A stretch of DNA of 35,673 bases from Thermodesulfobacteriota bacterium (GTDB taxonomy: Bacteria > DASVDK01): contig DATCKS010000522.1 in the NCBI GenBank assembly GCA_036562265.1, positions 1 through 35,673 of the forward strand, read 5' to 3'. The notes beneath the pieces are model-generated. The model saw only the letters and a program-made list of their open reading frames with translations. It ran no database searches and had not been told where the DNA came from. The position numbers and the translations under genes are program-made. Numbering within the stretch: position 1 is the stretch's first letter; each line of letters begins with the position of its first letter. Of the stretch, positions 9,530 to 34,092 are shown in pieces.

Positions 9530-9545
9530 CGGCACGTTACTTGCT
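9530..9545 (+). promoter_or_regulatory. Sigma-54 (-24/-12) promoter candidate CGGCACG-TTAC-TTGCT. Alternatively it is part of an intergenic hairpin.
   Basis: GG is at 9531-9532 and GC at 9543-9544, with canonical spacing, inside a 32-nt gap. The -12 C is 15 nt from the ATG at 9559. Caveat: GGCACG (9531-9536) and CGTGCC (9546-9551) are inverted repeats, extended by GCGC/GCGC. The element could therefore be an RNA stem-loop instead. Confidence 0.45.
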
Positions 9546-10591: not shown

Positions 10592-11821
10592 GTGAAGCTG
10601 CCGCGGTGGCTCACGAAGGCCCTGCGCGACGCCGACGATGCCATCGACACGCTGCGAGCCCGGCCGAGGCGAATCCTCTTCGACGCCAGGACGCCGATGA
10701 ACTACGTCATGTGGCGTCCGGTCGCCATGCGGCTGGCCGCGGACACGAGGATCGAGCAGTGGCACATGGCCGGCGAGGAGACGGGCCGACCCTACGCGCT
10801 CTACGAGCAGGTCGGCGTCCGCGACCGCATCATCTCGCGCTTCGAGGCGCAGCTCATGCGCTTCGACCTCTACGTGTGCGCCGACTTCGTCGCGACCTGG
10901 CTCAAGCGCCGCGTCCGGCGCGTGCACATCTTCCACGGCGTCGCGGGGAAGTACGGCCTCGACACGCCCGACCCCTCCATCGGACGCTTCGACGCCTACT
11001 TCTTCGTCAACCGCGACCGCCTGCGGCGCTACCGCGCGGCCGGGCTGGCCGATCGGCACAACACCTACCTCGTCGGGATGCCGAAGGTCGATCGGCTGGT
11101 GGACGGGTCGCTCACGCGCGAGGCGGCGCGCGCGGCGCTCGGGATCACCGGGTCGCGGCCCGTGGTGCTCTACGCGCCGACGTGGTCGCCGCACTCGTCG
11201 CTCGCCAGGCAGGGGGAGGCGCTGCTCAAGGCGCTTGGGAGGTTGGACGCCGAACTGGTGGTCAAGTTGCACGACCGGGCGTTCGACCCGAGACCGGCGT
11301 ACTCGTCGGGGGCCCACTGGCCGGCCAGGCTCGCCGCGCTCGAGGCGGCGGGGCGGCTGCGGCTCGTGCGCGACCCCGATGCCACGACGGCGCTGGCTGC
11401 GGCCGACTGCCTCGTCACCGATCACTCGTCGATCGGCTTCGAGTACCTCCTGCTCGACCGACCGCTCGTCGTCGTGGACGAGCCCGAGCTGCTCCGCGCC
11501 GCTCGGGTCACCGGCGACCACGTGATCTGGCTTCGGGAGGCCGCCACGACGGTCCGCGCCGCCGAGGAGGCGGCGGCCGCGGTCGGGGCCGGCCTCGCCG
11601 ACCCGGCGGCGCGGCGGGCCGAACGGCGCCGGGTCGCCCGGCGCCTCTTCTATCGACCGGGGACCGCCACGGATCGGGCCGTGGCGGCGATCTACAGGCT
11701 GCTCGAGCTTGCGCCGCCAGAGGCGGCGCTCACCAAGGAGTCCGACACCGATGGCCGAATCCTCCTGCGCCGTGATTCTCGCGGCAGGCGTGAGCCGGCG
11801 ACTCATGCCCCTCACGCGTGA
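10592..11821 (+). CDS. CDP-alcohol (glycerol/ribitol-phosphate type) phosphotransferase, TagB/TagF family (copy 1)
   Basis: Glyphos_transf-like motifs: VHIFHGVAGKY, VLYAPTWS, VVKLHDRAFD, LVTDHSSIGFEYLLLDRPLVVVD. It is a clear paralog of 17420-18670. GTG start. The non-conserved C-terminal tail overlaps the next gene by 71 nt. Confidence 0.75.
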   Translation: MKLPRWLTKALRDADDAIDTLRARPRRILFDARTPMNYVMWRPVAMRLAADTRIEQWHMAGEETGRPYALYEQVGVRDRIISRFEAQLMRFDLYVCADFVATWLKRRVRRVHIFHGVAGKYGLDTPDPSIGRFDAYFFVNRDRLRRYRAAGLADRHNTYLVGMPKVDRLVDGSLTREAARAALGITGSRPVVLYAPTWSPHSSLARQGEALLKALGRLDAELVVKLHDRAFDPRPAYSSGAHWPARLAALEAAGRLRLVRDPDATTALAAADCLVTDHSSIGFEYLLLDRPLVVVDEPELLRAARVTGDHVIWLREAATTVRAAEEAAAAVGAGLADPAARRAERRRVARRLFYRPGTATDRAVAAIYRLLELAPPEAALTKESDTDGRILLRRDSRGRREPATHAPHA

Positions 11822-12554
11822 CATCCCGAAGTGCCTGCTCGTCCTCGGCGGCCGCACGCTGCTGGAGCGCCAGCTCGCCCTTCTCGCCGATCTCGGCATC
11901 GAGGACGTGGTCGTGGTGACCGGCCACGGCGCCGAGGCGGTCCGCGCCGCGTGCGCGGGCCGGGCTCGCTGCGTGCATAACCCGCACTTCGAGGTGACGA
12001 ACAGCCTCTACAGTCTGGCGCTGGCGGAGGACGCGATGCCGGAGGGACCGATGCTGCTGCTCAACAGCGACGTCCTGATCCACCCGGCGCTGGTCGAGCG
12101 CCTGCTCGCCGATCCGGCCGACGACGCGCTCCTCGTCGACCTCGACTCGCGGCTCGACGACGAAGCGATGAAGGTCGCGATCTCGGCGGGCAAGGTCGTC
12201 GCCATCGACAAGCGGCTCGACCGGTCGATCACCGACGGCGAGAACGTGGGCGTCGTCAAGTTCGGCCGGGAGGGACGCCGGGCGCTCTTCCGGGCGGCGC
12301 GAGGGCTCCTGTCGGAGGGGCGGCTGTCGGCCTGGGCCCCGGCCGCCTACCAGGAGATCCTCGAGGAGAGGCCGATCACCGCGGTACCGACCGACGGGTT
12401 GCCGTGGATCGAGATCGACTTTCCGGAAGACCTCGTGCGGGCGATGCGCGACGTCGTGCCGCGGATCGACGGCGCCGTCGGCCACGGGCGCGCCAGGGGG
12501 CGCGCCGGGAAGGGGACCCTGCGGGCGAGCGCCCACATCGGCGCGAGACCGTGA
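11751..12554 (+). CDS. Nucleotidyltransferase of the LicC/COG1213 type (putative cytidylyltransferase making a CDP-activated alcohol phosphate)
   Basis: N-terminal NTP-binding loop AVILAAGVSRRLMPLTRDIPKCLL, then NSDVL, GENVGVVKF and the C-terminal WIEIDFPEDL. ATG at 11751 gives the typical short N-terminus. Confidence 0.75.
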   Translation: MAESSCAVILAAGVSRRLMPLTRDIPKCLLVLGGRTLLERQLALLADLGIEDVVVVTGHGAEAVRAACAGRARCVHNPHFEVTNSLYSLALAEDAMPEGPMLLLNSDVLIHPALVERLLADPADDALLVDLDSRLDDEAMKVAISAGKVVAIDKRLDRSITDGENVGVVKFGREGRRALFRAARGLLSEGRLSAWAPAAYQEILEERPITAVPTDGLPWIEIDFPEDLVRAMRDVVPRIDGAVGHGRARGRAGKGTLRASAHIGARP

Positions 12555-15918: not shown

Positions 15919-17423
15919 GCACCGCGCGGACGCTCGGCCGCAACACCGCGGCGCGGTACGGCGCGCTGGCGGTCGACGCCCTCGTCGGCCTGGTGCTCCT
16001 CCCCTACAACCTGGGGCACCTCGGCGCGGAGGACTACGGCCTCTGGATCCTCTCGGCCACGGTCGCCCGGTACGTGTCGTTCCTCGATCTCGGCTTCGGC
16101 GGGGGGCTCGTGCGCTTCGTCGCCGAGTGCCGCGCGACGGGTGACAGCCGCCGGCTCTCGGAGATCGCGAGCACCGTCTTCGCCGCCTTCTCGGTCGCCG
16201 GCGTGGCCGCGCTCGCGATCATGGGGGGCGTCGCGCTCGCCTACGACCGGCTCTTCGCCGTCGAGGCGGCCCAGGCCGAGGTGGGGCGGACGGTGCTCCT
16301 CGTCGTCGCCGCACGGCTCGCGCTCGGCCTCCCGCTGTCGGTCTTCGGCGCGGTGATCAACGGCGCGCAGCGCTACGCGATGAACAACGCCGTGGCGATC
16401 GTGACGACGCTCGCCGCCGCGGCCGCCAACGTGATCGCCATCGAGCGAGGCGGCGGCGTCCTGGCGGTCGTCGTCGCCACGACGGCCGTCCACCTCCTGG
16501 CCTACGTCGCCTACGTGGTGAACGCCTACCGGGTGCAGCCCGACCTCACGGTCTCGCCGCGGCTCGCCAGCCTGGCGAGGCTGCGCGAGGTCGGCGCGTT
16601 CAGCGGCTACCTCTTGGTCCTCGACTGGTCGCACAAGGTGAACTACTCGCTCGACACCTTCGTCATCGGCTGGGCGCTCGGCCCCCGAGCGGTCTCGCTC
16701 TTCACGCCGTCGGTCCGCGTCGCGCAGACCATGCGCGACCTGACGGCGCAGTTCCACAGCGTCCTCTTCCCGGCGGTCGTCGACCTCGGTACCCGCGGCG
16801 ATCATCGGCGCCTCGTGACGCTGCTCATCGAGGGGACGAGGCTGTCGACGGCGCTCGCCCTGGCGGTCGGGCTCGGCGTGATCGTCCTGGCCGAGCCGCT
16901 CCTCGTCGCGTGGGTCGGCCCGAGCGTGGCGTCGAGCGCGGCGGTCCTCCAGGTCCTCGCCCTCTCGATGCTGATCCGCGTCGGCCAGGCGACCGGGGCG
17001 ACCATCCTCAAGGGGGCGGGCGGGCACCGGTACCTGGCGGCGAACAACGCCGCCGTTGCCGCCTGCAACCTGGCCCTGTCGGTCGCGCTCGTGGGGCGGC
17101 TCGGGATCCTCGGCGTCGCGCTCGGCACCGCGATCCCCGTGTCGGTCGGCTCCGTCTTCATCGTGCCGCGGGCCTGCCGCCGCCTCGGCGTGCCGGTCCG
17201 GCGGTTCTGGCGGGAGGCGATCTGGCCGGTGCTCTGGCCGGCCCTGCCGGCCGCGGTGGCGCTCTGGGTCGGCCGCGAGACGCTCGAGCCGAACCACGTC
17301 GTCACCGTGCTCGCCTGCGGCGGCGCGGCGGCGGCGCTCTACCTGGGCCTCGTGTACGGGTTCGGCCTCACGCCGGACGCCAGAGCCACGCTCCAGGCGC
17401 GGCTCAGGGCGGCGGTCGCATGA
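15915..17423 (+). CDS. Wzx-type oligosaccharide flippase (MOP/polysaccharide biosynthesis protein family)
   Basis: N-terminus RTLGRNTAARYGALAVDALVGLVLLPYNLGHLGAEDYGLWIL is typical of Wzx/RfbX. About 12-14 TM helices run throughout. GTGA overlap with the upstream gene. Confidence 0.88.
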   Translation: MSTARTLGRNTAARYGALAVDALVGLVLLPYNLGHLGAEDYGLWILSATVARYVSFLDLGFGGGLVRFVAECRATGDSRRLSEIASTVFAAFSVAGVAALAIMGGVALAYDRLFAVEAAQAEVGRTVLLVVAARLALGLPLSVFGAVINGAQRYAMNNAVAIVTTLAAAAANVIAIERGGGVLAVVVATTAVHLLAYVAYVVNAYRVQPDLTVSPRLASLARLREVGAFSGYLLVLDWSHKVNYSLDTFVIGWALGPRAVSLFTPSVRVAQTMRDLTAQFHSVLFPAVVDLGTRGDHRRLVTLLIEGTRLSTALALAVGLGVIVLAEPLLVAWVGPSVASSAAVLQVLALSMLIRVGQATGATILKGAGGHRYLAANNAAVAACNLALSVALVGRLGILGVALGTAIPVSVGSVFIVPRACRRLGVPVRRFWREAIWPVLWPALPAAVALWVGRETLEPNHVVTVLACGGAAAALYLGLVYGFGLTPDARATLQARLRAAVA

Positions 17424-18670
17424 TCGGCTGGCGCACGGTCCGGCGCCGCATCGTCGAGGCGCTGCGCGACCTCGACGACGCCTGGCACGCGCGCACGGCC
17501 AGGCGGCGCCGCGTCCTCTTCGAGGCGCGCACGCCGGTCAACTTCGCCTGCCTCGCGCCGATCCACGAGCGGCTCGCGGCCGATCCGCGCGTCGAGTGCT
17601 GGTACACGGCCACCGAGGGGGACGTGCCGGCCGACCGCCTCTACGCCGCCTTCGGCATCACCGAGCGGGTGGTGCCGCAGGCCAAGGCCGAATGGCTCAA
17701 GGTCGACCTCTACCTGAACAGCGACTTCGCCAGGATGGCGCGCCTTCGACGCCGGGCCGCGCACGTCCACTTCTTCCACGGGGTCGCCGGCAAGTACGAC
17801 CTCGACGGGACGACGACGCCGGTCAGGGACATGAGCCACTTCGACACGCTCGCGCGCTTCGACCGGATCGCCTTCGCCAACGAGGACCGGCTCCGCAAGT
17901 GGCGGGCCGTGGGGCTCCTCCGCCCTGACGACCCGAGGCCCGTTCTGATCGGCTACCCGAAGGTGGACGGCCTCGTGACCGGGCGCTGGCCGCGGGCGGC
18001 CACGCTCGCGCGCCTGGGGCTCGACCCGACCCGCCCGGTGCTCCTCTACGCGCCGACCTGGTCGGCCGCCGCGTCGCTCCACGTCTTCGGCGGCGAGGCG
18101 ATCGTGGCGGCGCTCCGGCGGACCGGCCACCAGGTGATCGTCAAGCTGCACGACCGGGCCTACGACCGGCGGGAGCGCTACTCCGCCGGCATCGACTGGG
18201 CCTCGCGCCTCAGGCCGCTCGAGGCCGACCCCGCGGTGAAGATCGTGACCTGGCCCGACGCGACGCCGCTGCTCGCCGCGGCCGACCTCTTGGTCTCGGA
18301 CCACTCGTCGGTCGCGTTCGAGTACCTGCTCGTCGACCGGCCGGTCATCGTCTTCGACCTGCCCGAGCTGATCGTCCGGGCGCGCATCAACGCCGATCAG
18401 GTGCGGTGGATACGCCAGGCGGCCGACGTGATCGCGACGCCGGACGAACTCCCCGATGCGGTCCGGCGTGGGCTCGACGCGCCGAAGGCGCGGTCGGCCG
18501 AGCGCCGGGTGGTCGCCGAGCGGCTCTTCTACCGTCCCGGGACCGCCACCGACCGCGCCGTGGCCCTCTGCTACGAGCTGATGGGCCTGCCGGTCCCGGA
18601 GACAACCGGCGCGCGGCTCCTGGCCGGCGACGACGAGCGGGACGCCGTGGCCCTGGGGAGCCGGCCGTGA
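17420..18670 (+). CDS. CDP-alcohol phosphotransferase, TagB/TagF family (copy 2)
   Basis: It has the same motif set as copy 1: VHFFHGVAGKY, VLLYAPTWS, IVKLHDRAYD, LVSDHSSVAFEYLLVDRPVIVFD, LFYRPGTATDRAV. ATGA overlap upstream and GTGA overlap downstream. Confidence 0.75.
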   Translation: MIGWRTVRRRIVEALRDLDDAWHARTARRRRVLFEARTPVNFACLAPIHERLAADPRVECWYTATEGDVPADRLYAAFGITERVVPQAKAEWLKVDLYLNSDFARMARLRRRAAHVHFFHGVAGKYDLDGTTTPVRDMSHFDTLARFDRIAFANEDRLRKWRAVGLLRPDDPRPVLIGYPKVDGLVTGRWPRAATLARLGLDPTRPVLLYAPTWSAAASLHVFGGEAIVAALRRTGHQVIVKLHDRAYDRRERYSAGIDWASRLRPLEADPAVKIVTWPDATPLLAAADLLVSDHSSVAFEYLLVDRPVIVFDLPELIVRARINADQVRWIRQAADVIATPDELPDAVRRGLDAPKARSAERRVVAERLFYRPGTATDRAVALCYELMGLPVPETTGARLLAGDDERDAVALGSRP

Positions 18671-19662
18671 CGGTCCCCCGCGCCTCCGTCGTCGTCTGCA
18701 CCTACAACCGCGCCGGCCGGCTCGCCGACGCGCTCGCCTCGATCGATCGGCTCGAGGACCCGGGGGTGCCGTACGAGGTGGTGGTGGTGGACAACGGCTC
18801 GACGGACGGCACCCCCGCGCTCCTGCGCGACTGGGTCGCGCGGGCGCATCCGGGCGGCCCGGTGCGCCGGACGCTCCACGAGCCGCGCCCCGGGAAGTCG
18901 TTCGCCCTGAACCTGGCCGTCACGTCCACGACGACCGACTGGGTGGCGCTCACCGACGACGACGTCCTCGTGGCGCCCGACTGGCTCGCCGTGGCGGCCA
19001 GGAGCCTCGCCGAGCGTCCCGACGTCGACTACCTCGGCGGCAAGGTCCTCCCGCTCTGGGAGACCGAGCCGCCGGCCTGGTTCTCCATGGCGGAGCGCGA
19101 CCTCTTCGGGACGATCGCCATCCTCGACTACGGCGACGAGGGCTTCGACTTCGACGGGAGGGTGCCGCTCGGCGCCAACATCGTCTACCGCCGCCGCGCC
19201 TTCGAGCGGGCCGGCCTCTTCCGGACCGACCTCGGTCGCGACCACTCGACGCTGCGCGGGCAGGAGTTCCCGGAGCACCTCCTGCGGCTCGAGGCGGCGG
19301 GGGGACGGGGGCGGTACGTGCCCGACCTCGTGGTGCACCACCACGTCCCGGCCCGGCGGCTCACGAAGCGCTACTACCGCGAGTGGTTCTACTGGAAGGG
19401 GATCTCGCGCGCGCTGGTGACCGAGACCGCGCCGATCGACGAGCTCGGCGTCGACTACCGCGCCGTCCCGCGCATCGCCGGCGTGCCGCGCTTCATGCTG
19501 CGCCAGGCGGTCGTGACCGCCGTCGACATGGCGGGGCGCAGGCTCCGGGGCGACCTCCCCGGCGCCTTCGTCCGCGAGGCGTGGCTCTGCTACCTCTACG
19601 GCTTCGCCCGGCAGTCGTGGCGCATCTGGCGCGAGAACGGGCACCGGAGGCGGAGCGGGTGA
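18667..19662 (+). CDS. Family 2 glycosyltransferase (paralog of 14893-15918)
   Basis: ASVVVCTYNRAGRL, YEVVVVDNGSTDGT, LTDDDVLV, LGANIVYRR, WFYWKGISRA. Confidence 0.88.
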   Translation: MTVPRASVVVCTYNRAGRLADALASIDRLEDPGVPYEVVVVDNGSTDGTPALLRDWVARAHPGGPVRRTLHEPRPGKSFALNLAVTSTTTDWVALTDDDVLVAPDWLAVAARSLAERPDVDYLGGKVLPLWETEPPAWFSMAERDLFGTIAILDYGDEGFDFDGRVPLGANIVYRRRAFERAGLFRTDLGRDHSTLRGQEFPEHLLRLEAAGGRGRYVPDLVVHHHVPARRLTKRYYREWFYWKGISRALVTETAPIDELGVDYRAVPRIAGVPRFMLRQAVVTAVDMAGRRLRGDLPGAFVREAWLCYLYGFARQSWRIWRENGHRRRSG

Positions 19663-21713
19663 GGCGGACCGCGCTCGTGGCGCTCGCCCTCCTCTGGGCC
19701 ACCCTGTCGTCATCCGGCCGGCCGGCCGGTTCGACCGGGCCGGTCGAGGCGACGCTCGTCCTCGGCACCGCGGCCGACTTCGAGGCGCCGTCGGCCGCCT
19801 CGCCGCTCGTCCTCGCCAACGACGGCGAGGGCCGGCACGGCTGGTCGCGGCTCACGACGGGGTACGAGTGCCCCGACCGCGAGGACGGCTGGTACCCCTA
19901 CGCCGTCGAGGCCGATCTCCCCGAGGGGGGCCGCGGCTGCCTGCGCTGGCGCGCCATCAAGCCGATCTACGTCGCCGAGGTGCGGCTCGCGCCGACGGCC
20001 CCCTGGCGCAGCCTCACGATCCGCTACAAGGACAACCTCTTCCCGCCCGGCATCGACCGCTACCGTCCCAAGCCGGCCGTCACGGCGGCGGTCTGGGACG
20101 GCACGGCGTTCAGGACGGTCGCCACGCTCGAGTCGCGCCGCGACCATGCCTGGAAGTCGGTCGTCGTGCCGCTCGACCGCGCCAGGCCGACCGAGAAGGG
20201 GTACCTCGCGGTGCGGCTCGGCGGCGGCCCCTGGGGACGCAACGAGTTCTACGGCTCCGCCCTGGTGCACCGCCTCGTCGCTTCCACCGCGCCGGCGTCC
20301 GCCGTGGAGCCGGAGGCGCCCCGCGCCGGCTTCTGGCCGGACGTGCCCGAGAGGCCGCAGCGCCGCTTCGGCGAGCGAGGGTTCCACCGGCCGGACGGTC
20401 GGCCGGCCTTCCCGATCGCCGCGACGATCCCGATGCTCGACTACCATCCCGAGCAGTTCGAGAACCTCGCGTGGGCCGGCTTCAACACCGCCTTCGCCGT
20501 GGTGAGCGGGGAGGGGGCCGGCTGGGCGGCCTGGACCAGCCGGCGGAGCGAGCCGACCCGGCGGGGGGACGTCTACCTGGGGCTCCCCGAGAAGCTCGAG
20601 GCGTACCGCCGCGCGGGGCTCGACGTGGTCGTCTGGAACCAGACCGACACGCGGCGGTGGTGGGTGCGCCACTGGGGTCGCAAGGGGAAGGGGGGCGTCG
20701 ACCCCTGGTTCCTCGCCAGACCCTACCGCCGCCTGTACGACGGCACGGCGCAGGGGGTGGTGCGCGTCTGGCGCCAGGCGCTCCGCGACTACGCGCGCCA
20801 TCCGTCGGTCGTCGGCTGGTACCTCAAGGACGAGTTCGACCACGACGACGACACCTGGGGCAGCCCCGAGGAGACCGTCCGCCAGCTCTACGCCCTCGTC
20901 GCGCGCGAGGCGCCGAACCTTTCGACCTTCGTCGGGGCGATGGCCTGGAAGCCGGGGATGCTCGAGGCGGCACGCGACCTCGGCGACATCGTGGCGTTCG
21001 ACCGCTACCCGTCGGGGGACGAGGGGTCGCCTCGCGGCGAGACCGCCCAGTGGGCCGAGGCGGCACGGCGGGCGGTCGACCCCGGGCAGATGTGGGTCTC
21101 CATCGCGGCGCTCTCGCGGGCCTACCGCGAGAAGGACTTCCGCGACCCGGCGAGGTGGGAGCCGATCGAGACCGGCGTGCGCTTCCAGTACTACCTCGCC
21201 CTGGTCCACGGCGCGCAGATGGTCTGGACCTTCGGCGACGTGGGGCCGCGAAGCCGCTACGGGGAGCGGGGGCTCGCGTGGTGGACGGCGCTGCGCGAGG
21301 CCAACCGCGAGGTGGCCGCGCTCGGCCTGCCGTTCTTGCACGCCGGCGCCGGCCGGACGCTCGGCCGCAGCGTGGCGGCGAGCGAGCCGTCGCGCAACGC
21401 GCCCTACCCGCTCGAGCCGTCGGTCGAGGGGGACGGCACGAGCGGCCACCCGCAGGTGTCGACCCTCTACCGGGAGGCGCGCGACGGCACGCGGGTGCTC
21501 CTCGCGCTCAACGAGTGGAGCCGGCCGGCGTCGCGGGTACCGCTCCGGATCGAGGGCCTTCGCGCCGGGCAGTGCGTGACGGTGCTCTTCGAGGGGCGGT
21601 CGGCCTGCGCGCCGCGGGAGGGGATCCTCGTCGACGACTTCGAGCCGTACGCCCGCCACGTCTACCTGGTTCGCCCCGCCCGGGCGTCCGGAAAAGGCGC
21701 CCCCGGGCGGTGA
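19659..21713 (+). CDS. Secreted two-domain protein: an N-terminal beta-sandwich-like module, then a putative (beta/alpha)8 glycoside-hydrolase-like domain and a C-terminal beta-sandwich. Family not recognised.
   Basis: Sec signal VRRTALVALALLWATLSSSG. It is a paralog of 24738-26846, sharing blocks RWRAI, YKDNLF.P..D.YRPK, RDH.WK.VV, NEFYGS.LVHR, GFWP, YLKDE[FW]DH, WKP, ALSRAY and EPYARHVY/APYERHVY. The alternating strand/helix pattern and a [ND]E after a hydrophobic strand suggest a clan-A-like barrel. Confidence 0.6.
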   Translation: MRRTALVALALLWATLSSSGRPAGSTGPVEATLVLGTAADFEAPSAASPLVLANDGEGRHGWSRLTTGYECPDREDGWYPYAVEADLPEGGRGCLRWRAIKPIYVAEVRLAPTAPWRSLTIRYKDNLFPPGIDRYRPKPAVTAAVWDGTAFRTVATLESRRDHAWKSVVVPLDRARPTEKGYLAVRLGGGPWGRNEFYGSALVHRLVASTAPASAVEPEAPRAGFWPDVPERPQRRFGERGFHRPDGRPAFPIAATIPMLDYHPEQFENLAWAGFNTAFAVVSGEGAGWAAWTSRRSEPTRRGDVYLGLPEKLEAYRRAGLDVVVWNQTDTRRWWVRHWGRKGKGGVDPWFLARPYRRLYDGTAQGVVRVWRQALRDYARHPSVVGWYLKDEFDHDDDTWGSPEETVRQLYALVAREAPNLSTFVGAMAWKPGMLEAARDLGDIVAFDRYPSGDEGSPRGETAQWAEAARRAVDPGQMWVSIAALSRAYREKDFRDPARWEPIETGVRFQYYLALVHGAQMVWTFGDVGPRSRYGERGLAWWTALREANREVAALGLPFLHAGAGRTLGRSVAASEPSRNAPYPLEPSVEGDGTSGHPQVSTLYREARDGTRVLLALNEWSRPASRVPLRIEGLRAGQCVTVLFEGRSACAPREGILVDDFEPYARHVYLVRPARASGKGAPGR

Positions 21714-24526: not shown

Positions 24527-24700
24527 TTCGGTTCCGTTCACCCCGTCACGGTATTGTCACCGCGCCTTCCGCCATCGGGCCGTAACTCCTACGTTCCCAG
24601 CTCCCTGACCCCGCACCGTTAGCCCGGGCGCCCGTGCGTGCGCTCACGCGGCCTCCAAGGAGGCATAGCGCCTGCTTCGTATGCCGCTCGGTTGCCAACC

Positions 24701-24737: not shown

Positions 24738-26846
24738 ATGCAGAGACGACGACGGCTCGGAGCGACCGCGGTGGCGGCGTTGTGGCTCCTCGCGACGGCG
24801 TGCGGCGCCGCCGTCTCACCCGACCAGCTCTCCGGAGGAGCCGGGCCGGGTGCGGGCGCGGGCGACGGCACGACCCCGGGAGACCAGCCGGGCACCGGTG
24901 AGCCCGGAGGCGCGCCGGGGACCGGTGATCCGGGAGGCGAACCGGGCAGCGGCGGCCCCATCGGCGGGCCGCTCGGGTGGCCCGACGCCCCGCTCGGCGA
25001 CCGTGCCGTCTCGCGCACGCTCGGCGACGCGAACGACAAGGGGAGCGGGCCGATCCAGATCGTCTCCGGCGACCAGGACGGGGCGTACGCGTGGAACGGG
25101 CCGGCCGGCTACGAGCGGCCGGGTGATCCGGAGGGCTTCTGGCCGTACGCCTCGGCGGACGAACTGCCCGACGGCGGCAGCGGCTTCGTGCGCTGGCGCG
25201 CCATCGTGCCGACCTACCCGGCCGACATCTACGTCCCGGGCACCAGCACGCACGTCGCCTTCGAGTACAAGGACAACCTCTTCTCGCCGAAGCTCGATCC
25301 CTATCGGCCCAAGGGGAACGGGCCGAGCGTGAAGATCGGATCGGTCCTGCTCGGGGAGCTCGAGGCGAAGCGCGACCACCGCTGGAAGCGGGTCGTGCTG
25401 GCGATTCCGGCCAACGCCCCGCGCGAGGCGGACGGCCGCTACCGGATCCGCATCGGCGGCGGCACCTACGGGTGGAACGAGTTCTACGGGTCGATGCTCG
25501 TCCACCGCATCATCGCGGCCGAGGGGCCGATCCCGAGCCGCGCGCCGGTGGCCGGCTTCTGGCCGGCGACGACCCCCATCATGGCCGACGGCAAGCTCTA
25601 CGACCGGCAGGGCCGCCCGTACGTGCCGATCATCGTGAACATGCCCTCGGCCGTCAACGACGCGAACCAGTACAAGGCGGCCAACATGATGGGCGCCAAC
25701 ACGAACATCGCCGTCGGCTACGCCGAGGGCAACGGCCGCCGCTGGTGGGCGGAGGGGCACTGGACCTGGATCGACGGCGCCGGCCGGCCGCAGGAGCAGA
25801 TGGGCATCACGACGCTCATGGAGACCTCGGTGCGCGAGGGGCTCTTCACGTCGCCCATCGCGTTCCAGGACACGTGGCAGGCGTACATCAAGATGATGGG
25901 CAAGACGATGACCTACGGCGGTCCCGGCTACCAGGAGCTCTACGACGGGACCTGGCGAGGCGTGACGAAGGTCTTCGAGCGGGCCATGACGAACCTCGTC
26001 AAGTCGAACCCCCACGTGCCCTTCATCTACCTCAAGGACGAGTGGGACCACGAGGACCAGTACTGGGGGAGCCTCGAGGAGCAGGTCCTCGAGCTTCGCG
26101 CGATCGCCAACCGCGTGGCGCCCGGGGTGCCGACGACGGTGGCGACGATGGGCTGGAAGCCGCTCATGCACCGGGCCGGGTTCGAGCTGGCCGACTTCCA
26201 GATGAGCGACACCTACCCGACCTACGACAAGCTCCAGACCATCGCCCTCTTCGCCGAGTCGATGCGGCGGCAGGCCGGCAGCCGGGCCTTCTTCAACATC
26301 GTGGCGCTCAGCCGCGCCTACGAGGGACGCACGACACCGGACAAGTGGCTCGGCGTCAACTACCACCGCCCGGCGCTCTACATGAACCTGGTCCACGGCG
26401 GGCGGGGGATCTGGTTCTGGGGATCGCCGGCCGGGATGAACGACCCGCAGGCCGCCGACTACTACCGGTCGTTCAAGCCGCTCACCGACGAGATCCGGGC
26501 GCTGGCCGACGTGATCCACGGCTCGGCCAAGGAGCTCGGGCGGACCGTCGCCACCGCGAAGGTGGGCGACACGATGTACCCCGAGAAGTACCGGAAGGAG
26601 GGGGACGGCACGAGCGACACCGACGGCGTCGCGACCGCGTACCGGCAGTCGGCCTCCCGCAAGGTGCTCCTCACGGTCAACGAGTGGAACCAGCCGCTCA
26701 CGGCGCGGCTTCGCGTCTCGTCGATCCGCGCGGGCGACCGGATCCGCGTCCTCTTCGAGGACCGGGTGGTCATAGCCGACCAGGACGGGTCGTTCACCGA
26801 CTCGTACGCGCCCTACGAGCGGCACGTGTACGAGATCCCGCGGTGA
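24738..26846 (+). CDS. Lipoprotein paralog of 19659-21713 (beta-sandwich + putative glycoside-hydrolase-like barrel + C-terminal beta-sandwich)
   Basis: Signal with lipobox MQRRRRLGATAVAALWLLATACG, then a Gly/Pro-rich low-complexity tether (GAGPGAGAGDGTTPGDQPGTGEPGGAPGTGDPGGEPGSGGP). The remainder shares the conserved blocks listed for its paralog. SD GAGGGAGGGG lies upstream. Confidence 0.6.
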   Translation: MQRRRRLGATAVAALWLLATACGAAVSPDQLSGGAGPGAGAGDGTTPGDQPGTGEPGGAPGTGDPGGEPGSGGPIGGPLGWPDAPLGDRAVSRTLGDANDKGSGPIQIVSGDQDGAYAWNGPAGYERPGDPEGFWPYASADELPDGGSGFVRWRAIVPTYPADIYVPGTSTHVAFEYKDNLFSPKLDPYRPKGNGPSVKIGSVLLGELEAKRDHRWKRVVLAIPANAPREADGRYRIRIGGGTYGWNEFYGSMLVHRIIAAEGPIPSRAPVAGFWPATTPIMADGKLYDRQGRPYVPIIVNMPSAVNDANQYKAANMMGANTNIAVGYAEGNGRRWWAEGHWTWIDGAGRPQEQMGITTLMETSVREGLFTSPIAFQDTWQAYIKMMGKTMTYGGPGYQELYDGTWRGVTKVFERAMTNLVKSNPHVPFIYLKDEWDHEDQYWGSLEEQVLELRAIANRVAPGVPTTVATMGWKPLMHRAGFELADFQMSDTYPTYDKLQTIALFAESMRRQAGSRAFFNIVALSRAYEGRTTPDKWLGVNYHRPALYMNLVHGGRGIWFWGSPAGMNDPQAADYYRSFKPLTDEIRALADVIHGSAKELGRTVATAKVGDTMYPEKYRKEGDGTSDTDGVATAYRQSASRKVLLTVNEWNQPLTARLRVSSIRAGDRIRVLFEDRVVIADQDGSFTDSYAPYERHVYEIPR

Positions 26847-27505
26847 TCGCCGCGCATCTCCTCGCCGTCCTCGCCGCCGCCGTGCTCGCCGCGCCGGCGG
26901 CGGGGACGGCCTTCGAGGGGCCGCGGCTCGTCGGCACCTGGCTCGTGCCGGGGCAGGCCGGCTCGGCCGTCTTCGAGGACGCCTCGGGCCGGCAGGTCGC
27001 CAGGCGGGTGGGGGACCTCGTGGCGCCGGGCCTGCGTCTCGCGGCGGTGCGGCGGGGCGCGGTGGACCTCGTCGACGACGCGGGGCGTCGTCTCACCCTG
27101 CGCACCGGCCGCGGCGGCGGCCGCGTGCCCGAGCCGGTCGACGGCGTGCGTCTCGCACGGGCCGCGCCGGTCGACGCCGGGCGCCTCGCGCACGCCGGGC
27201 CGGTCGATAGGGACGGCCACCCGCTGCACGTGCGGCACGGGTCGCGGCTCGCGCGCGCGCACGAGGAGGGGCGGTTCGCGGGGCTCAGGCTCGTCGGCGG
27301 GCCGCCCGACACGCCGCTCGTGCGGGCGGGGCTTCGGCCGGGTGACCTCATCGTCGCGGTCGACGGCCGCGAGCTCGACGGCGACGATCCGCAACTGGTT
27401 CCCTCGCTCCTCGAGGCGCTCGACGCCGCCGACGCCGAGTCGCCGCTCCTCGTCGAGGCGCGGCGCGGCGACGAGGTGATCCGCGTGGCCGTCGGCGAGC
27501 CCTGA
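26843..27505 (+). CDS. GspC/PilP-like protein: signal/anchor + HR (secretin-interaction type) domain + PDZ domain
   Basis: N-terminal hydrophobic segment IAAHLLAVLAAAVLAAPAAG. HR-like pattern LVGTWLVPGQAGSAVFEDASGRQVARRVGDLVAPGLRLAAVRRGAVDLVDDAGRRLTL. PDZ-like segment FAGLRLVGGPPDTPLVRAGLRPGDLIVAVDGRELD. GTGA overlap upstream. Confidence 0.65.
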   Translation: MIAAHLLAVLAAAVLAAPAAGTAFEGPRLVGTWLVPGQAGSAVFEDASGRQVARRVGDLVAPGLRLAAVRRGAVDLVDDAGRRLTLRTGRGGGRVPEPVDGVRLARAAPVDAGRLAHAGPVDRDGHPLHVRHGSRLARAHEEGRFAGLRLVGGPPDTPLVRAGLRPGDLIVAVDGRELDGDDPQLVPSLLEALDAADAESPLLVEARRGDEVIRVAVGEP

Positions 27506-27524
27506 CGCCGCAGCCCGTCCGGCT

Positions 27525-27540
27525 TGGCATGTGCCTTGCT
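27525..27540 (+). promoter_or_regulatory. Sigma-54 (-24/-12) promoter candidate TGGCATG-TGCC-TTGCT
   Basis: It matches TGGCACG-N4-TTGCW with a single C-to-T change. GG is at 27526-27527 and GC at 27538-27539. It fills most of the short gap after the stop at 27505. The -12 C is 15 nt from the in-frame GTG at 27554. A 7-bp inverted repeat flanks it: CCGTCCG (27515-27521) and CGGACGG (27546-27552). Confidence 0.6.
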
Positions 27541-29832: not shown

Positions 29833-31127
29833 GCCGGCGCCTGCGGATCCTCTGGCTGTCGCACATGCTGCCGCACCCGCCGGTGAGCGGCGCCCTCCAG
29901 CGGGCGTTCCACCTCCTCGCCGGCGCGGCGGCGGCGCACGACGTCACCCTCGTGAGCTTCACCCAGCGGTCCCTCCTGCGGACGCGGGAGGAGGTGGCGG
30001 CGGCCGTACGGGCGCTCGAACCGCGCTGCCGCGAGGTCGTCGTCTGCGACGTGCCGTCCGACCGGTCGCGCGCTGCCCGCGCGGCGGCGCTCCTCGCGGC
30101 CGGGCTCTCGACACGGCCGTTCATGGCGCGCCGCTTCGCCTCCCGTGCCTTCACCGCGGAAGTCGCCCGCGTCGCGGCGGCGACCCGGTTCGACCTGGTC
30201 CACGTCGACACGATCGGGCTCGCCCCGTACGCGGACCTCGTGCCGGGCGTCCCGTTCGCCCTCGACCACCACAACGTCGAGTCGCACCTCGCCGGCCGCC
30301 GGGCCGCGGCGACCCGCCCGGGTCCGGCCCGGCTCTACCTCGCGGCCGAGGCAGCCAAGCTCGCCGCGCTCGAGCGGCGCTACGCGCGGGCCGCCGCCGT
30401 GAACCTCGTCTGCTCGGCGCTCGACGCCGAACGGCTGTCGGCCGTCGCGCCCGGCGCCCGGACGGCGGTCGTGCCCAACGGGACCGACCCCGCGCGACTC
30501 GGCCGCCCGCGCCGCGCGCCCGAACCGGGCCACCTCCTCTTCGTCGGCGGGCTCTCGTGGTTCCCCAACGCGAACGGCCTGCGCTGGTTCCTGCGGGAGG
30601 TCTGGCCGGTCGTGCGCGCGTCGCGCGGCGATGCGCGCCTCACGGTCGTCGGCGCCGACCCGCCGCCGGACCTGCGTCGGGCGGCGTCGGCCGACTCCCG
30701 GATCGTCCTGGCCGGTCGGGTCGAGGACGTCGCGCCCGCCTTCGCGCGCGCCGCCGCCTTCGTCTGTCCCATCCTCGACGGCGGCGGCACGCGGCTCAAG
30801 GTGCTCGACGCCCTGGCGGCGAGGACGCCGGTCGTCTCCACGACGCTCGGCTGCGAGGGACTCGACCTCGAGCCCGAGCGCCACTACCTCGCCGCCGACG
30901 ACGCCGCGACGTTCGCCCGGCAGACGCTGCGGCTCCTCGCCGACCCCGGCCTTGCCGACGCGCTCGCCGAGGCCGGCCGCCGCGTCGTCGTCGACCGTTT
31001 CGCCTGGCCGCGCATCATCCCGCGTCAGCTCGACGCCTACGAGGCCGCCGTCGCACACCCCCGGGGTCAGGCCTTTCCATTTTCCATGGGGTCAGGCCTT
31101 TCCATTTTCCACACCGGGGAGCGTTGA
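29829..31127 (+). CDS. Family 4 (GT-B) glycosyltransferase (resembles the PEP-CTERM/EpsH1-associated sugar transferase type)
   Basis: LRILWLSHMLPHPPVSGALQRAFHLL, FVGGLSWFPNANGLRWF, GGGTRLKVLDALAARTPVVSTTLGCEGL. The last 20 or so codons run through an AT-richer 25-bp tandem repeat and are probably not ancestral coding sequence. Confidence 0.85.
   Translation: MSRRLRILWLSHMLPHPPVSGALQRAFHLLAGAAAAHDVTLVSFTQRSLLRTREEVAAAVRALEPRCREVVVCDVPSDRSRAARAAALLAAGLSTRPFMARRFASRAFTAEVARVAAATRFDLVHVDTIGLAPYADLVPGVPFALDHHNVESHLAGRRAAATRPGPARLYLAAEAAKLAALERRYARAAAVNLVCSALDAERLSAVAPGARTAVVPNGTDPARLGRPRRAPEPGHLLFVGGLSWFPNANGLRWFLREVWPVVRASRGDARLTVVGADPPPDLRRAASADSRIVLAGRVEDVAPAFARAAAFVCPILDGGGTRLKVLDALAARTPVVSTTLGCEGLDLEPERHYLAADDAATFARQTLRLLADPGLADALAEAGRRVVVDRFAWPRIIPRQLDAYEAAVAHPRGQAFPFSMGSGLSIFHTGER
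31063..31112. repeat. Perfect-phase tandem direct repeat, 2 x 25 bp (GGGGTCAGGCCTTTCCATTTTCCAT / ...CCAC)
   Basis: Read directly: 31063-31087 and 31088-31112 are identical at 24 of 25 positions. GC content is far lower than the surroundings. Each unit contains the sub-repeat TTCCAT-T-TTCCA. It sits at the junction of convergent genes. Confidence 0.9.
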
Positions 31128-31139
31128 GCCCAGGTCCGG

Positions 31140-31799
31140 TCAGAAGCTCCAGGTGAGGTCGAGGCGGACCTCGGGGCCGCCTCGGGTGGTGGACTGGCCG
31201 CCGGTGAACGCGAGGATCAGGCGATCGGAGAGGGGGCGGCGGACGGTCATCTCGATCCGCTCGGTGAAGGGCCGGTAGGCGAGGCGCCAGTCGAGGACGC
31301 CCCGCACGAGGTGGAGCCCCGGAGCGAGATCGAAGCCCTCGCCGACGGCGTTGACGCGAAGCCGCAGCGAGAACCGGTCGTCGACCTCCGGCCCGTCGCG
31401 CGGCATCCCGGCCGCGAGCGTCTCGCCTGCCGCGTCGGGGTCGTCGCCCGCGATCTTCAGGGTGGCGTGCCGGCGGTAGCGGGCCTCGAGACGACGCAGG
31501 AGCGGGACCTGCTCGATCACCTCGTCGGCCAGCTCGTCGCCGAGCCGGTCGAGGTAGGCGCGCGCCACGCGCGCCCGCGAGTCGTCGAGCCGTTCCCGTC
31601 CGACCCGGTCGGCGGCCGCCGACATCGCCGCCGCGGCGCCCGGGCTCTGGAACCGGCTGCGATAGTCGAGCTCGACGGCGAGATCGACCCGCGGTCCCGG
31701 GACGAAGACGTCGGCCAGCGCCGCGAGCAGCGGGGAGGGGACGAGACAGATCGCTCCGGCGGAGAGGACTCCCATCGCCGCCCATCGCGCACGCGCCAC
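31140..31799 (-). CDS. Hypothetical secreted/outer-membrane-associated protein, co-oriented downstream of the GGDEF/HD-GYP gene
   Basis: Only the last ~219 codons of the 861-aa reverse ORF look like real protein. A GTG start at 31799 gives the signal-like N-terminus VARARWAAMGVLSAGAICLVPSPLLAALA. The alternative ATG is at 31775. The protein ends ...RLDLTWSF, an aromatic C-terminus as in OM proteins. I recognise no family. Confidence 0.5.
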   Translation of the reverse strand: MARARWAAMGVLSAGAICLVPSPLLAALADVFVPGPRVDLAVELDYRSRFQSPGAAAAMSAAADRVGRERLDDSRARVARAYLDRLGDELADEVIEQVPLLRRLEARYRRHATLKIAGDDPDAAGETLAAGMPRDGPEVDDRFSLRLRVNAVGEGFDLAPGLHLVRGVLDWRLAYRPFTERIEMTVRRPLSDRLILAFTGGQSTTRGGPEVRLDLTWSF

Positions 31800-34076: not shown

Positions 34077-34092
34077 AGCAAGCGGTGTGCCA
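34077..34092 (-). promoter_or_regulatory. Sigma-54 (-24/-12) promoter candidate on the - strand: TGGCACA-CCGC-TTGCT
   Basis: The reverse complement of 34077-34092 reads TGGCACACCGCTTGCT, a perfect TGGCAC and TTGCT at canonical spacing. The -12 C is at 34078, so the predicted +1 is near 34066. That is 6 nt upstream of the ATG at 34060. Confidence 0.6.

What the first reader, a model, noticed from the sequence alone, without database searches (positions are those of the whole stretch)
26843..27505. GspC/PilP-like HR + PDZ protein in an EPS locus without a secretin. Possible partner of the ExeA-like ATPase 21 kb upstream.
The 220-aa protein has a hydrophobic N-terminus and a segment matching the GspC HR / PilP pattern (L-VGT...SAVFED.SGRQ...VGD....GLRL..V....V.LVD..GRRLTL). 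It also has a PDZ-like domain (GLRPGDLIVAVDGRELD). In type II secretion and type IV pili, that HR fold docks onto the secretin N0 domain. ExeA/GspA works with the GspC-related GspB to assemble secretins. Here both a GspA-like ATPase (4541-5644) and a GspC-like protein sit in a polysaccharide locus whose only outer-membrane components are a Wza-like lipoprotein and an uncharacterised beta-barrel. One hypothesis is that T2SS accessory parts have been co-opted to bridge the inner-membrane machinery to the Wza-like or barrel export channel. Alternatively they might help PEP-CTERM-type cargo cross the envelope.
Basis: inference. Interest (0 to 1): 0.65.

Follow-up and report, generated by a model that had tools for sequence, protein, structure and literature searches.

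The report
Anchorless GspC-like protein paired with hydrolase
The gene does encode a small secreted protein built like the type II secretion "clamp" GspC (a secretin-docking domain plus a PDZ domain), but it has lost GspC's membrane anchor and is always co-translated with a sugar-cleaving lipoprotein inside a slime-polysaccharide gene cluster, so it is probably that enzyme's helper and not a partner of the distant ATPase.

Summary
Window 26843-27505 (+) is a real 220-aa gene with four parts:
- a short Sec-type signal peptide;
- a 60-residue beta-sandwich whose closest solved structures are GspC HR and PilP;
- a disordered linker;
- a PDZ domain.

The family's profile preferentially finds canonical GspC proteins: 111 of the 141 best non-family hits carry Pfam T2SSC. 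It still fails GspC membership:
- there is no cytoplasmic or transmembrane N-terminus;
- Pfam T2SSC and NCBIfam GspC_delta scores are below cut-off;
- there are no gsp genes or secretin in the window.

- The "ExeA-like ATPase" is the standard XrtA/PEP-CTERM-system ATPase (TIGR03015).
- The Wza-like protein plus barrel is the known short OPX/porin translocon, which needs no adaptor.
- A syntenic sister locus has the same regulators, hydrolase, OPX and chain-length genes but no GspC-like gene.

The one constant partner is the upstream gene (24738-26846), a GH42-like outer-membrane lipoprotein. Its stop codon overlaps the start codon of the GspC-like gene in every context recovered. The pair lies between two conserved sigma-54-type promoters.

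I read it as a lineage-specific, GspC-derived periplasmic adaptor for that hydrolase. It is a new variant of a known kind. The family is rare (about 13 sequences), its mechanism is inferred, and interest is moderate.

The parts
26843..27505 (+). g22: the 220-aa GspC-like protein (signal peptide + HR + linker + PDZ)
   Evidence: ORF and translation. Coding GC pattern and purifying selection. Orthologues at 62-84% identity.
26843..26914 (+). Residues 1-24: Sec-type signal peptide (n-region, 12-15-residue hydrophobic core, small-residue c-region; no Cys)
   Evidence: Hydropathy peak at residues 1-25. The same short N-terminus is seen in all 13 family members, e.g. ...AQA/DG and ...AAA/NE. pLDDT is below 50. 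Cleavage is inferred; no signal-peptide predictor was run.
26921..27103 (+). Residues 27-87: HR / PilP-type seven-strand beta-sandwich. The conserved beta1 motif is PRLVGT (R, L, G and T invariant), followed by the AVFED..GRQ..RVGD motif
   Evidence: AF2 pLDDT 90.8. Foldseek returns 3oss_C, 2lc4, 2ivw, 7oio and 6hcg_e. hhalign probability 97.6%. Invariant columns.
27104..27223 (+). Residues 88-127: low-complexity, disordered linker of variable length
   Evidence: pLDDT 26-44. Indel-rich in the alignment. dN/dS is 1.4 against L004 but 0.29-0.52 against the two more distant orthologues, L001 and L005.
27224..27496 (+). Residues 128-218: PDZ domain with an intact G-L-R-L carboxylate-binding loop (G147, L148, L150 invariant)
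   Evidence: Pfam PDZ_6 28.3 bits. NCBIfam GspC_delta matches residues 135-182 only. Foldseek finds HtrA3 and EpsC PDZ. Invariant columns.
24738..26846 (+). g21: 702-aa GH42-like outer-membrane lipoprotein (lipobox LLATAC, Gly/Pro-rich tether). It is translationally coupled to g22
   Evidence: The start was chosen from homologue P0157 and the GGGAGGGG ribosome-binding site. Lipobox Cys is present in 13 of the 15 closer homologues, P0157-P0171. Family member P0171 passes the GH42 cut-off with 24.4 bits against 21; 5 of 22 members hit GH42 and 4 of 22 hit DUF4434. The stop/start overlap is conserved.
24661..24675 (+). Sigma-54-type -24/-12 element (aGGCATagcgcCTGCt) upstream of g21
   Evidence: Read from the sequence. 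The same element is conserved in L001 and L004, and a GGCAC-N5-CTGCT version in L006, while the flanks diverge. It has three mismatches to the consensus, so it is a candidate only.
27524..27539 (+). Sigma-54-type promoter TTGGCATGTGCCTTGC between g22 and the first GT4 gene. It marks the end of the g21-g22 unit
   Evidence: One mismatch to TGGCAC-N5-TTGC. It is identical in the window, L001 and L004 although the flanking bases differ.
31140..31775 (-). g26: 211-aa secreted protein of unknown family, ending in ...LTWSF. It is a candidate PDZ ligand, present or absent together with g22 in the loci compared
   Evidence: Correct frame from the GC3 plot and translation. Orthologues end in LTWSF or ITLTF. 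It has no family or PDB match and is absent from L006. The ligand role is speculation.

Best explanation
g22 is a real, secreted periplasmic protein that descends from the type II secretion protein GspC. It has lost GspC's cytoplasmic and transmembrane N-terminus.

It is made stoichiometrically with g21, a GH42-like outer-membrane lipoprotein, from a two-gene sigma-54-dependent operon. That operon sits just after the locus's own sigma-54 response regulator.

It most likely acts as a dedicated adaptor or holder for that hydrolase.
- The HR beta-sandwich would dock by beta-strand augmentation through its highly conserved beta1 edge (PRLVGT).
- The PDZ domain would grip a C-terminal Phi-x-Phe tail or a beta-sandwich surface. 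Candidates are g21's C-terminal domain and the co-occurring secreted protein g26, which ends in WSF.
- Together they would position or escort the enzyme in the envelope, where the exopolysaccharide is trimmed or released.

It is an accessory of this lineage's EPS locus. It is not part of the core Wzx/Wzy-PCP-OPX-porin export machine and not a specific partner of the TIGR03015 ATPase.

**Shown:** domain architecture, GspC ancestry, absence of an anchor, gene coupling and synteny.

**Inferred:** physical binding to g21, the identity of the HR and PDZ ligands, and hydrolase activity.
For: **Architecture and ancestry.**
- Pfam PDZ_6.
- HR model with pLDDT 90.8, with GspC HR and PilP as its only low-rmsd PDB matches.
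- hhalign probability 97.6%.
- 111 of 141 next-best hits in 1.84 billion representatives carry T2SSC.
- Collinear BLASTP to a T2SSC+PDZ protein.

**No anchor.** HR starts at about residue 27 in all 13 members, against residues 55-147 in canonical hits. The N-termini have signal-peptide form.

**Coupling to g21.**
- GTGA overlap in the window.
- 4-nt overlaps in L001-L004 and L005. The L005 upstream fragment ends ...PYDRHVYQIP like g21.
- P0165 (a g21 homologue) is directly upstream of P0012.

**Two-gene unit.** It is bounded by conserved sigma-54-type elements and lies after the enhancer-binding response regulator.

**g21.** It is a lipoprotein with GH42/DUF4434 affinity.

**Accessory, not core.** L006 has the kinase, regulator, g21, OPX and PCP genes without g22.

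**Selection.** Both folded domains are under purifying selection.
Against:
- g21 orthologues at 42-58% identity occur without g22, so the hydrolase does not need it in general.
- Every characterised HR domain (GspC, GspB, PilP) binds a secretin N0 domain (PMC3169554, PMC9239104). No N0-like domain was detected in g21 or elsewhere in the window.
- Signal-peptide cleavage is inferred from sequence pattern only; an uncleaved signal anchor is not excluded.
- The GH assignment rests on weak Pfam hits in relatives. g21 itself has none.
- There are only about 13 family members and about 8 contexts.
Confidence: 0.5

Rival explanations
1. Cargo-specific secretin adaptor. g22 keeps the ancestral HR function: it binds the N0 domain of a T2SS or type IV pilus secretin encoded elsewhere in the genome. 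Its PDZ domain selects g21, so that the lipoprotein hydrolase is delivered to the cell surface, as pullulanase is by the Pul system.
For: - All known HR domains bind secretin N0 through the beta1-beta3 face (PMC3169554, PMC9239104), and beta1 is the best-conserved motif here.
- The GspC PDZ can select a single cargo through its Ig-like fold (PMC12369372).
- g21 is a lipoprotein with a long tether and is strictly coupled to g22.
- The PDZ domain is closest to the deltaproteobacterial GspC model.
Against: - g22 lacks the transmembrane and cytoplasmic part through which GspC joins the GspL/M platform.
- No T2SS or pilus genes occur in any of the contexts read, about 100 kb in total.
- g21 orthologues exist without it.
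- Presence of a secretin in these genomes is unknown.
Confidence: 0.2
2. First reader's model. g22 is a GspB/GspC-like partner of the ExeA-like ATPase at 4541-5644. Together they bridge the inner-membrane machinery to the Wza-like or barrel export channel, or help PEP-CTERM cargo cross the envelope.
For: - Both genes are in one EPS locus.
- The ATPase has the AAA_22 fold and an ExeA-like topology with one transmembrane helix.
- GspA works with an HR-domain protein, GspB, in some T2SSs (PMC9239104).
Against: - The ATPase is the generic TIGR03015 component of XrtA-type loci. The g22 family is tiny: 9 hits at E < 1e-10 in 1.84 billion representatives.
- The ATPase has only about 24 periplasmic residues.
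- The two genes are 21 kb apart, in separate transcription units.
- L006 has OPX and PCP genes but no g22.
- The short contigs carrying the more distant g22 relatives show no such ATPase gene near them.
- The PCP-OPX-porin complex is complete without an adaptor (PMC12819527).
- g22 has no membrane anchor to bridge from.
- No exosortase or PEP-CTERM gene was seen in the window.
Confidence: 0.07
3. Envelope sensor or quality-control module. The HtrA-like PDZ domain of g22 reads exposed C-terminal Phi-x-Phe tails, such as g26 (...WSF), the OPX protein (...SLF) or unassembled outer-membrane proteins. It thereby modulates hydrolase activity or signalling, by analogy with PDZ-based sensing in DegS and DegP.
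For: - The best sequence and fold matches of the PDZ domain include HtrA3, DegQ, DegP and CtpA PDZ domains.
- The carboxylate-binding loop is intact.
- g26 orthologues keep a C-terminal Phe. g26 is present with g22 in the window and the closely related loci L001-L004, and absent with it from L006.
Against: - There is no protease or signalling domain in g22.
- The locus kinase is cytoplasmic, with no transmembrane helix.
- The HR domain is unexplained by this model.
- The g26 link rests on only three independent orthologues from closely related loci (window, L001/L002, L004).
Confidence: 0.1
4. Decaying remnant of a displaced T2SS gene with no present function.
For: - The family is rare and confined to one lineage.
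- Some distant members are truncated in the PDZ part (P0010, P0011, P0013, P0027).
Against: - The reading frame is intact in all close orthologues.
- dN/dS is below 1 in both domains, while the linker (against L004) and the signal peptide (against L004 and L005) reach values above 1.
- The start/stop overlap is conserved.
- Both domains are predicted with confidence.
Confidence: 0.03

Closest known systems
GspC (T2SS protein C: EpsC, PulC, OutC, LspC; Pfam T2SSC PF11356 + PDZ; NCBIfam GspC_delta NF041515)
   Same: The order of periplasmic domains is the same: HR beta-sandwich, flexible linker, C-terminal PDZ. The HR model superposes on ETEC GspC HR at 1.6 A. The HR consensus motif is shared. 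The PDZ domain matches EpsC PDZ and the GspC_delta model. The family profile retrieves mainly GspC proteins.
   Different: There is no cytoplasmic N-terminus or transmembrane helix; a short signal peptide is followed at once by HR. It scores below the T2SSC and GspC_delta cut-offs. It is not in a gsp operon but is co-translated with a glycoside-hydrolase-like lipoprotein in an EPS locus. No secretin is nearby.
PilP (type IV pilus inner-membrane lipoprotein)
   Same: It has the same seven-strand beta-sandwich fold (2lc4 TM 0.77, 2ivw TM 0.69). Like PilP it is a small periplasmic accessory protein.
   Different: PilP has a lipobox Cys, no PDZ domain, and lies in pilMNOPQ. g22 has no Cys at its N-terminus, has a PDZ domain, and has no pil neighbours.
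GspB/OutB-ExeB with GspA/ExeA
   Same: GspB carries an HR domain that binds secretin N0 and can work with an AAA_22 ATPase (PMC9239104). The window holds both an HR protein and an AAA_22 ATPase.
   Different: GspB is membrane-anchored, has no PDZ domain and is encoded beside gspA. Here the two genes are 21 kb apart, and the ATPase belongs to the XrtA-system family TIGR03015 with almost no periplasmic part.
Periplasmic or OM glycoside hydrolases of EPS operons (PslG, PelA, BcsZ type), from general knowledge and not tested here
   Same: g21 would fill the usual slot of a locus-encoded polymer-trimming hydrolase.
   Different: To my knowledge, none of these is paired with an HR+PDZ partner. g21 belongs to an uncharacterised GH42/DUF4434-like family.

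Membership tests
GspC (T2SS protein C) | Short cytoplasmic N-terminus plus one transmembrane helix that anchors it in the inner-membrane platform | tested here: not met
   HR begins at residue ~27, after a 24-residue signal-peptide-like segment, in all 13 members. In canonical hits the matched region starts at residues 55-147. Cleavage itself was not tested.
GspC (T2SS protein C) | HR (homology region) beta-sandwich | tested here: met
   AF2 pLDDT 90.8. 3oss_C TM 0.76/0.80, rmsd 1.6 A; 6hcg_e; 7oio. hhalign probability 97.6%.
GspC (T2SS protein C) | Score above the curated cut-off of Pfam T2SSC (27 bits) or NCBIfam GspC_delta (150 bits) | tested here: not met
   No T2SSC hit at E <= 0.01. GspC_delta scores 32.1 bits, on the PDZ part only. 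The best family member, P0009, reaches 16.2 bits on T2SSC.
GspC (T2SS protein C) | C-terminal PDZ (or coiled-coil) domain | tested here: met
   PDZ_6 28.3 bits. Fold matches to EpsC PDZ 2i4s and 2i6v.
GspC (T2SS protein C) | Encoded with gspD-M; works with a secretin | tested here: not met
   No gsp or secretin domains in any window gene scanned or in the related loci. The rest of the genome could not be searched.
PilP | Lipoprotein signal peptide with lipobox Cys | tested here: not met
   No Cys in residues 1-30 of P0001-P0005, P0007, P0009-P0011, P0013 or P0027. The single Cys in P0008 and in P0012 lies inside the hydrophobic core (residue 7 or 9) and is not in lipobox position.
PilP | PilP-type beta-sandwich | tested here: met
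   2lc4 TM 0.77; 2ivw TM 0.69; 4av2_M TM 0.69.
PilP | pilMNOPQ gene neighbourhood | tested here: not met
   The neighbours are the GH-like lipoprotein and GT4 glycosyltransferases.
GspB/ExeB (partner of GspA/ExeA) | Membrane-anchored HR protein encoded next to gspA and interacting with it | tested here: not met
   There is no anchor. The AAA_22 ATPase is 21 kb upstream, in another transcription unit, with about 24 periplasmic residues. The interaction itself was not testable.
XrtA/PEP-CTERM EPS system (NCBIfam TIGR030xx set) | Membership of one of the system's curated families | tested here: not met
   g22 hits no such model. Its neighbours do: TIGR03007 and TIGR03013 above cut-off; TIGR03015, 03016, 03018, 03027, 03087, 03088 and 03097 as best hits below cut-off.
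HtrA/DegP/Ctp PDZ proteases | Protease domain attached to the PDZ domain | tested here: not met
   Only the PDZ part aligns to these proteins. There is no Trypsin_2 or S41 hit.

The most novel reading that the evidence does not exclude
An HR-domain protein that works without any secretin. In this reading a soluble GspC derivative docks a glycoside-hydrolase lipoprotein onto the short-OPX/porin polysaccharide translocon, or onto another non-secretin partner. That would be the first functional link between the T2SS clamp module and polysaccharide export, and it would show that the HR/PilP fold is a portable envelope adaptor.
Probability: 0.15. Interest if true: 0.7.

Novelty: new variant of a known kind. 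Interest (0 to 1): 0.4.

Why it matters
HR domains (GspC, GspB, PilP) are so far known only as secretin-N0 binders inside T2SS and type IV pilus machines. An anchorless HR+PDZ protein hard-wired to an EPS-locus hydrolase points one of two ways. Either secretins receive lipoprotein enzymes through a new cargo-specific route, or the HR/PDZ clamp has been reused outside secretin systems.

It also flags two uncharacterised families that recur in XrtA-type EPS loci of uncultured high-GC soil bacteria: the ~700-aa GH42-like proteins g18 and g21, and g26. And it corrects the idea that the locus ATPase and barrel are unusual.

The practical weight is limited. The family is rare and known only from metagenomes.

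Tried and rejected
**Searches that found nothing or could not discriminate**
- Whole-model Foldseek returned only PDZ matches, so the HR domain had to be modelled alone.
- The HR-only HMM against PDB sequences found no GspC or PilP. The link is visible only by profile-profile comparison and by fold.
- Pfam T2SSC does not hit g22 directly.
- Attempts to enlarge the family all failed:
  - two metagenome scans found nothing;
  - genome scans gave one MAG only or nothing;
  - alignments A2 and A3 were too divergent for pattern scans.
- g21 and g18 have no PDB sequence relatives, even with a 22-sequence profile.
- The founding PEP-CTERM paper does not mention the ATPase or secretins, and a literature search for a GspA link found nothing specific.

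**Not done**
- A genome-wide secretin/T2SS check was not feasible. The tools cannot restrict a search to one MAG, and any conserved-motif scan would saturate.
No multimer prediction was available.

**Ideas rejected**
- Displaced T2SS gene: the architecture has changed and the coupling to g21 is conserved.
- Spurious high-GC ORF: the codon-position GC and dN/dS values argue against it.
- My first reading frame for g26 (the Arg/Pro-rich ORF 31015-31785): it is not the GC3-favoured frame.


Full report
**1. The window**

The 35.7-kb window is 68-78% GC. A codon-position GC plot places almost all genes on the + strand, many with 4-base stop/start overlaps.

Pfam and NCBIfam identify a Wzx/Wzy-type exopolysaccharide locus of the XrtA/PEP-CTERM flavour.

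| Gene | Coordinates | Assignment |
|---|---|---|
| g02 | 1049-1720 | short OPX lipoprotein; best hits TIGR03027 and EpsY |
| g03 | 1723-3006 | TIGR03016-like outer-membrane barrel |
| g04 | 3044-4528 | chain-length determinant; TIGR03007, above cut-off |
| g05 | 4541-5644 | ATPase; TIGR03015, 308.9 bits against a 324.5 cut-off |
| g06 | 5641-6654 | tyrosine kinase |
| g07 | 6730-8127 | priming transferase; TIGR03013, above cut-off |

The locus also holds GT2 and GT4 transferases, Wzy_C, a flippase, two glycerophosphotransferase-like genes, two sigma-54 activators, a PAS histidine kinase and a GGDEF/HD-GYP protein. No exosortase and no secretin were seen.

The "uncharacterised beta-barrel" plus short Wza-like protein is the composite OPX/porin translocon already described (PMC9601211, PMC9603273). 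Its PCP-OPX-porin complex has been reconstituted without further adaptors (PMC12819527).

The "ExeA-like ATPase" is the generic ATPase of XrtA-type loci. Here it has one C-terminal transmembrane helix (residues 313-343) and only about 24 residues beyond it.

**2.

The gene at 26843-27505 is real.
- It shows the coding GC pattern 0.90/0.55/0.94.
- Against three orthologues, dN/dS is 0.25-0.5 in the first domain and 0.15-0.8 in the second. In the signal peptide it is above 1 in two of the three comparisons, and in the linker in one.

AlphaFold2 on the five-member alignment gives four regions:
- a low-confidence N-terminus (residues 1-24);
- a seven-strand domain (residues 28-87, pLDDT 70-88);
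- a disordered linker (residues 90-127);
- a PDZ-like domain (residues 128-218).

The PDZ domain passes Pfam PDZ_6 (28.3 bits against a cut-off of 27). It matches HtrA3, DegQ and V. cholerae EpsC PDZ structures. NCBIfam's deltaproteobacterial GspC model aligns, but only over the PDZ part (32 bits, cut-off 150).

The N-terminal domain, modelled alone with 12 sequences, reaches pLDDT 90.8.
- Its only low-rmsd PDB matches are PilP (2lc4 TM 0.77, 2ivw, 4av2), ETEC GspC HR (3oss_C, TM 0.76/0.80, rmsd 1.6 A over 64 columns), Legionella LspC and Klebsiella PulC HR.
- Foldseek probabilities are 0.98-1.0. E-values are only 0.05-0.5, as expected for a 60-residue domain. The interleaved ribosomal L2 hits have rmsd 12-14 A.

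Sequence evidence agrees.
- A profile of the family searched against 1.84 billion representatives gives 423 hits at E <= 1e-3. Most are single stretches spanning both domains in 250-310-residue proteins.
- Of the 141 best non-family hits, 111 carry Pfam T2SSC.
- hhalign of the HR-only profile against those GspC-length proteins gives probability 97.6% and E 2.8e-12, on the classical L.L.G....A.I....G.Q...RVG..V motif.
- These targets were pre-selected by the family profile, so the E-value is optimistic.

Negative results:
- Pfam T2SSC does not hit g22 itself.
- An HR-only HMM does not find PDB GspC or PilP sequences.

**3. How it differs from GspC**

In all 13 family members the HR domain starts at about residue 27. 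It follows a 20-25-residue N-terminus of signal-peptide form: a basic n-region, a 12-15-residue hydrophobic core and small residues before the junction. There is no Cys in lipobox position.

Canonical hits have 55-147 residues before the matched region, which is the cytoplasmic segment, transmembrane helix and spacer.

So g22 most likely is a soluble periplasmic protein. This is an inference, because no signal-peptide predictor was available. It therefore lacks the part of GspC that joins the GspL/M platform.

**4. Context**

The family is very small. There are five sequences at 62-100% identity and about eight more distant ones. Only 9 hits reach E < 1e-10 in the representative library. One GTDB genome carries it, a soil MAG labelled Thermodesulfobacteriota.

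Wherever upstream sequence is available, the preceding gene is a g21-type protein.

| Context | Junction |
|---|---|
| window | GTGA overlap |
| L001-L004 | 4-nt overlap |
| L005 | 4-nt overlap; the upstream fragment ends GDGTSDTDGVATAYR...PYDRHVYQIP like g21, and a second g21 copy follows |
| P0012 contig | the upstream gene is the g21 homologue P0165 |
| P0027 contig | 4-nt overlap with a larger upstream gene of unknown identity |

The g21 gene product:
- The true start is ATG 24738, from homologue P0157 and a GGGAGGGG ribosome-binding site.
- It carries a lipoprotein signal (LLATAC) and a Gly/Pro-rich tether. Thirteen of its 15 closer homologues (P0157-P0171) have the Cys.
- Five of 22 family members hit Pfam GH42. 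One (P0171, 42% identical) passes the cut-off over the catalytic half of the barrel. Four hit DUF4434. The weak hits centre on the invariant KDEWDHED motif.
- g18 (19659-21713) is a 34%-identical, non-lipoprotein paralogue.

g21 orthologues at 42-58% identity occur without g22 (L006, L007, L008).

L006 is syntenic: g18, kinase, regulator, g21, then the GGDEF gene, with OPX and PCP genes (and a barrel gene called between them) further on. It lacks the block g22 + three GT4 genes + g26.

A perfect copy of TTGGCATGTGCCTTGC, one mismatch from the sigma-54 consensus, lies between g22 and the first GT4 gene. It is identical in the window, L001 and L004, while the surrounding intergenic bases differ. 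A GGCAT-N5-CTGCT element is conserved upstream of g21.

So g21-g22 is a two-gene unit placed directly after the sigma-54 response regulator g20.

**5. Interpretation**

The strongest inference is a stoichiometric partnership with the GH42-like lipoprotein. I found nothing that links g22 to the ATPase 21 kb away.

Established knowledge gives two templates for how it might work.
- HR domains of GspC, GspB and PilP bind secretin N0 by augmenting a beta-sheet through their first strands (PMC3169554, PMC9239104). Here beta1 (PRLVGT) is the best-conserved motif.
- The EpsC PDZ domain selects one cargo through that cargo's Ig-like domain (PMC12369372).

I therefore propose a periplasmic adaptor that grips g21, or the co-occurring secreted protein g26, and docks it to a second partner. 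g26 orthologues end in LTWSF or ITLTF, a DegS-type Phi-x-Phe tail.

Whether the second partner is a non-secretin component of the EPS apparatus or a secretin encoded elsewhere cannot be decided here. I give the g21-adaptor reading 0.5 overall and the explicit secretin-delivery version 0.2 as a rival.
- g22 has no anchor.
- The ATPase has almost no periplasmic part.
- The two genes are in separate transcription units.
- L006 lacks g22.
- The family sizes are mismatched.

**6. Verdict**

- g22 fails GspC and PilP membership on anchor, curated scores and gene neighbourhood, so it should not be annotated as either.
- It is a new variant of a known kind.
- Interest is moderate (0.4). The most novel reading, a secretin-independent HR adaptor, has a probability of about 0.15.

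Noticed in passing
window 19659-21713 (+) and 24738-26846 (+): There are two paralogous ~700-aa proteins (34% identical) with no Pfam hit of their own. Their family has weak GH42/DUF4434 affinity and an invariant KDEWDHED motif. One is a lipoprotein with a Gly/Pro tether; the other has a plain signal peptide. They look like an uncharacterised glycoside-hydrolase-like family of EPS loci.
   Followed up: partly
window 27524-27539 (+), 34078-34092 (-), 8130-8144 (+), 9530-9544 (+), 24661-24675 (+): Sigma-54-type -24/-12 elements sit in intergenic positions ahead of genes. There is a perfect TGGCAC-N5-TTGC ahead of the GGDEF/HD-GYP gene, and one-mismatch sites before the GT4 block and two GT2 genes. 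This fits the two sigma-54 activators in the locus. Counts at <= 2 mismatches are not above chance (22 observed, 18.5 expected). Conservation across loci was checked for two sites only.
   Followed up: partly
window 31140-31775 (-): A conserved 211-aa secreted protein with no known family ends in ...LTWSF (ITLTF in a relative). The longest ORF at this place (31015-31785, another frame) is an Arg/Pro-rich artefact of the high GC content. The gene is missing, together with the GspC-like gene and three GT4 genes, from the syntenic locus L006.
   Followed up: partly
window 1-35673: Many genes match XrtA/PEP-CTERM-system families best (two above cut-off, the rest below). However, no exosortase, EpsI-type or PEP-CTERM-tagged gene was seen in the window. 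The locus may be an exosortase-independent relative of that system, or the exosortase may lie elsewhere.
   Followed up: no
window 4541-5644 (+): The TIGR03015-type ATPase has a single C-terminal transmembrane helix (residues 313-343) and only about 24 residues after it. It therefore has ExeA-like topology without ExeA's periplasmic peptidoglycan-binding domain.
   Followed up: partly
window 10592-11821, 11751-12554, 17420-18670 (+): Two CDP-glycerol glycerophosphotransferase-like genes and a MobA-like nucleotidyltransferase lie inside the EPS locus. They hint at a polyol-phosphate (teichoic-acid-like) decoration of the polymer.
   Followed up: no
window 1723-3006 (+) vs L006 19153-20334: The window's TIGR03016-like barrel ends ...ELAGLAP, without the usual terminal aromatic residue, whereas the L006 counterpart ends ...GTTAF. 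The window's OPX protein ends ...QSLF, while the L006 OPX ends ...LVVP.
   Followed up: no
L001 3201-4928 (-) and L006 5018-6700 (-): Related loci carry an extra minus-strand gene with a GINT1_N domain between the g18 paralogue and the histidine kinase. The window lacks it.
   Followed up: no
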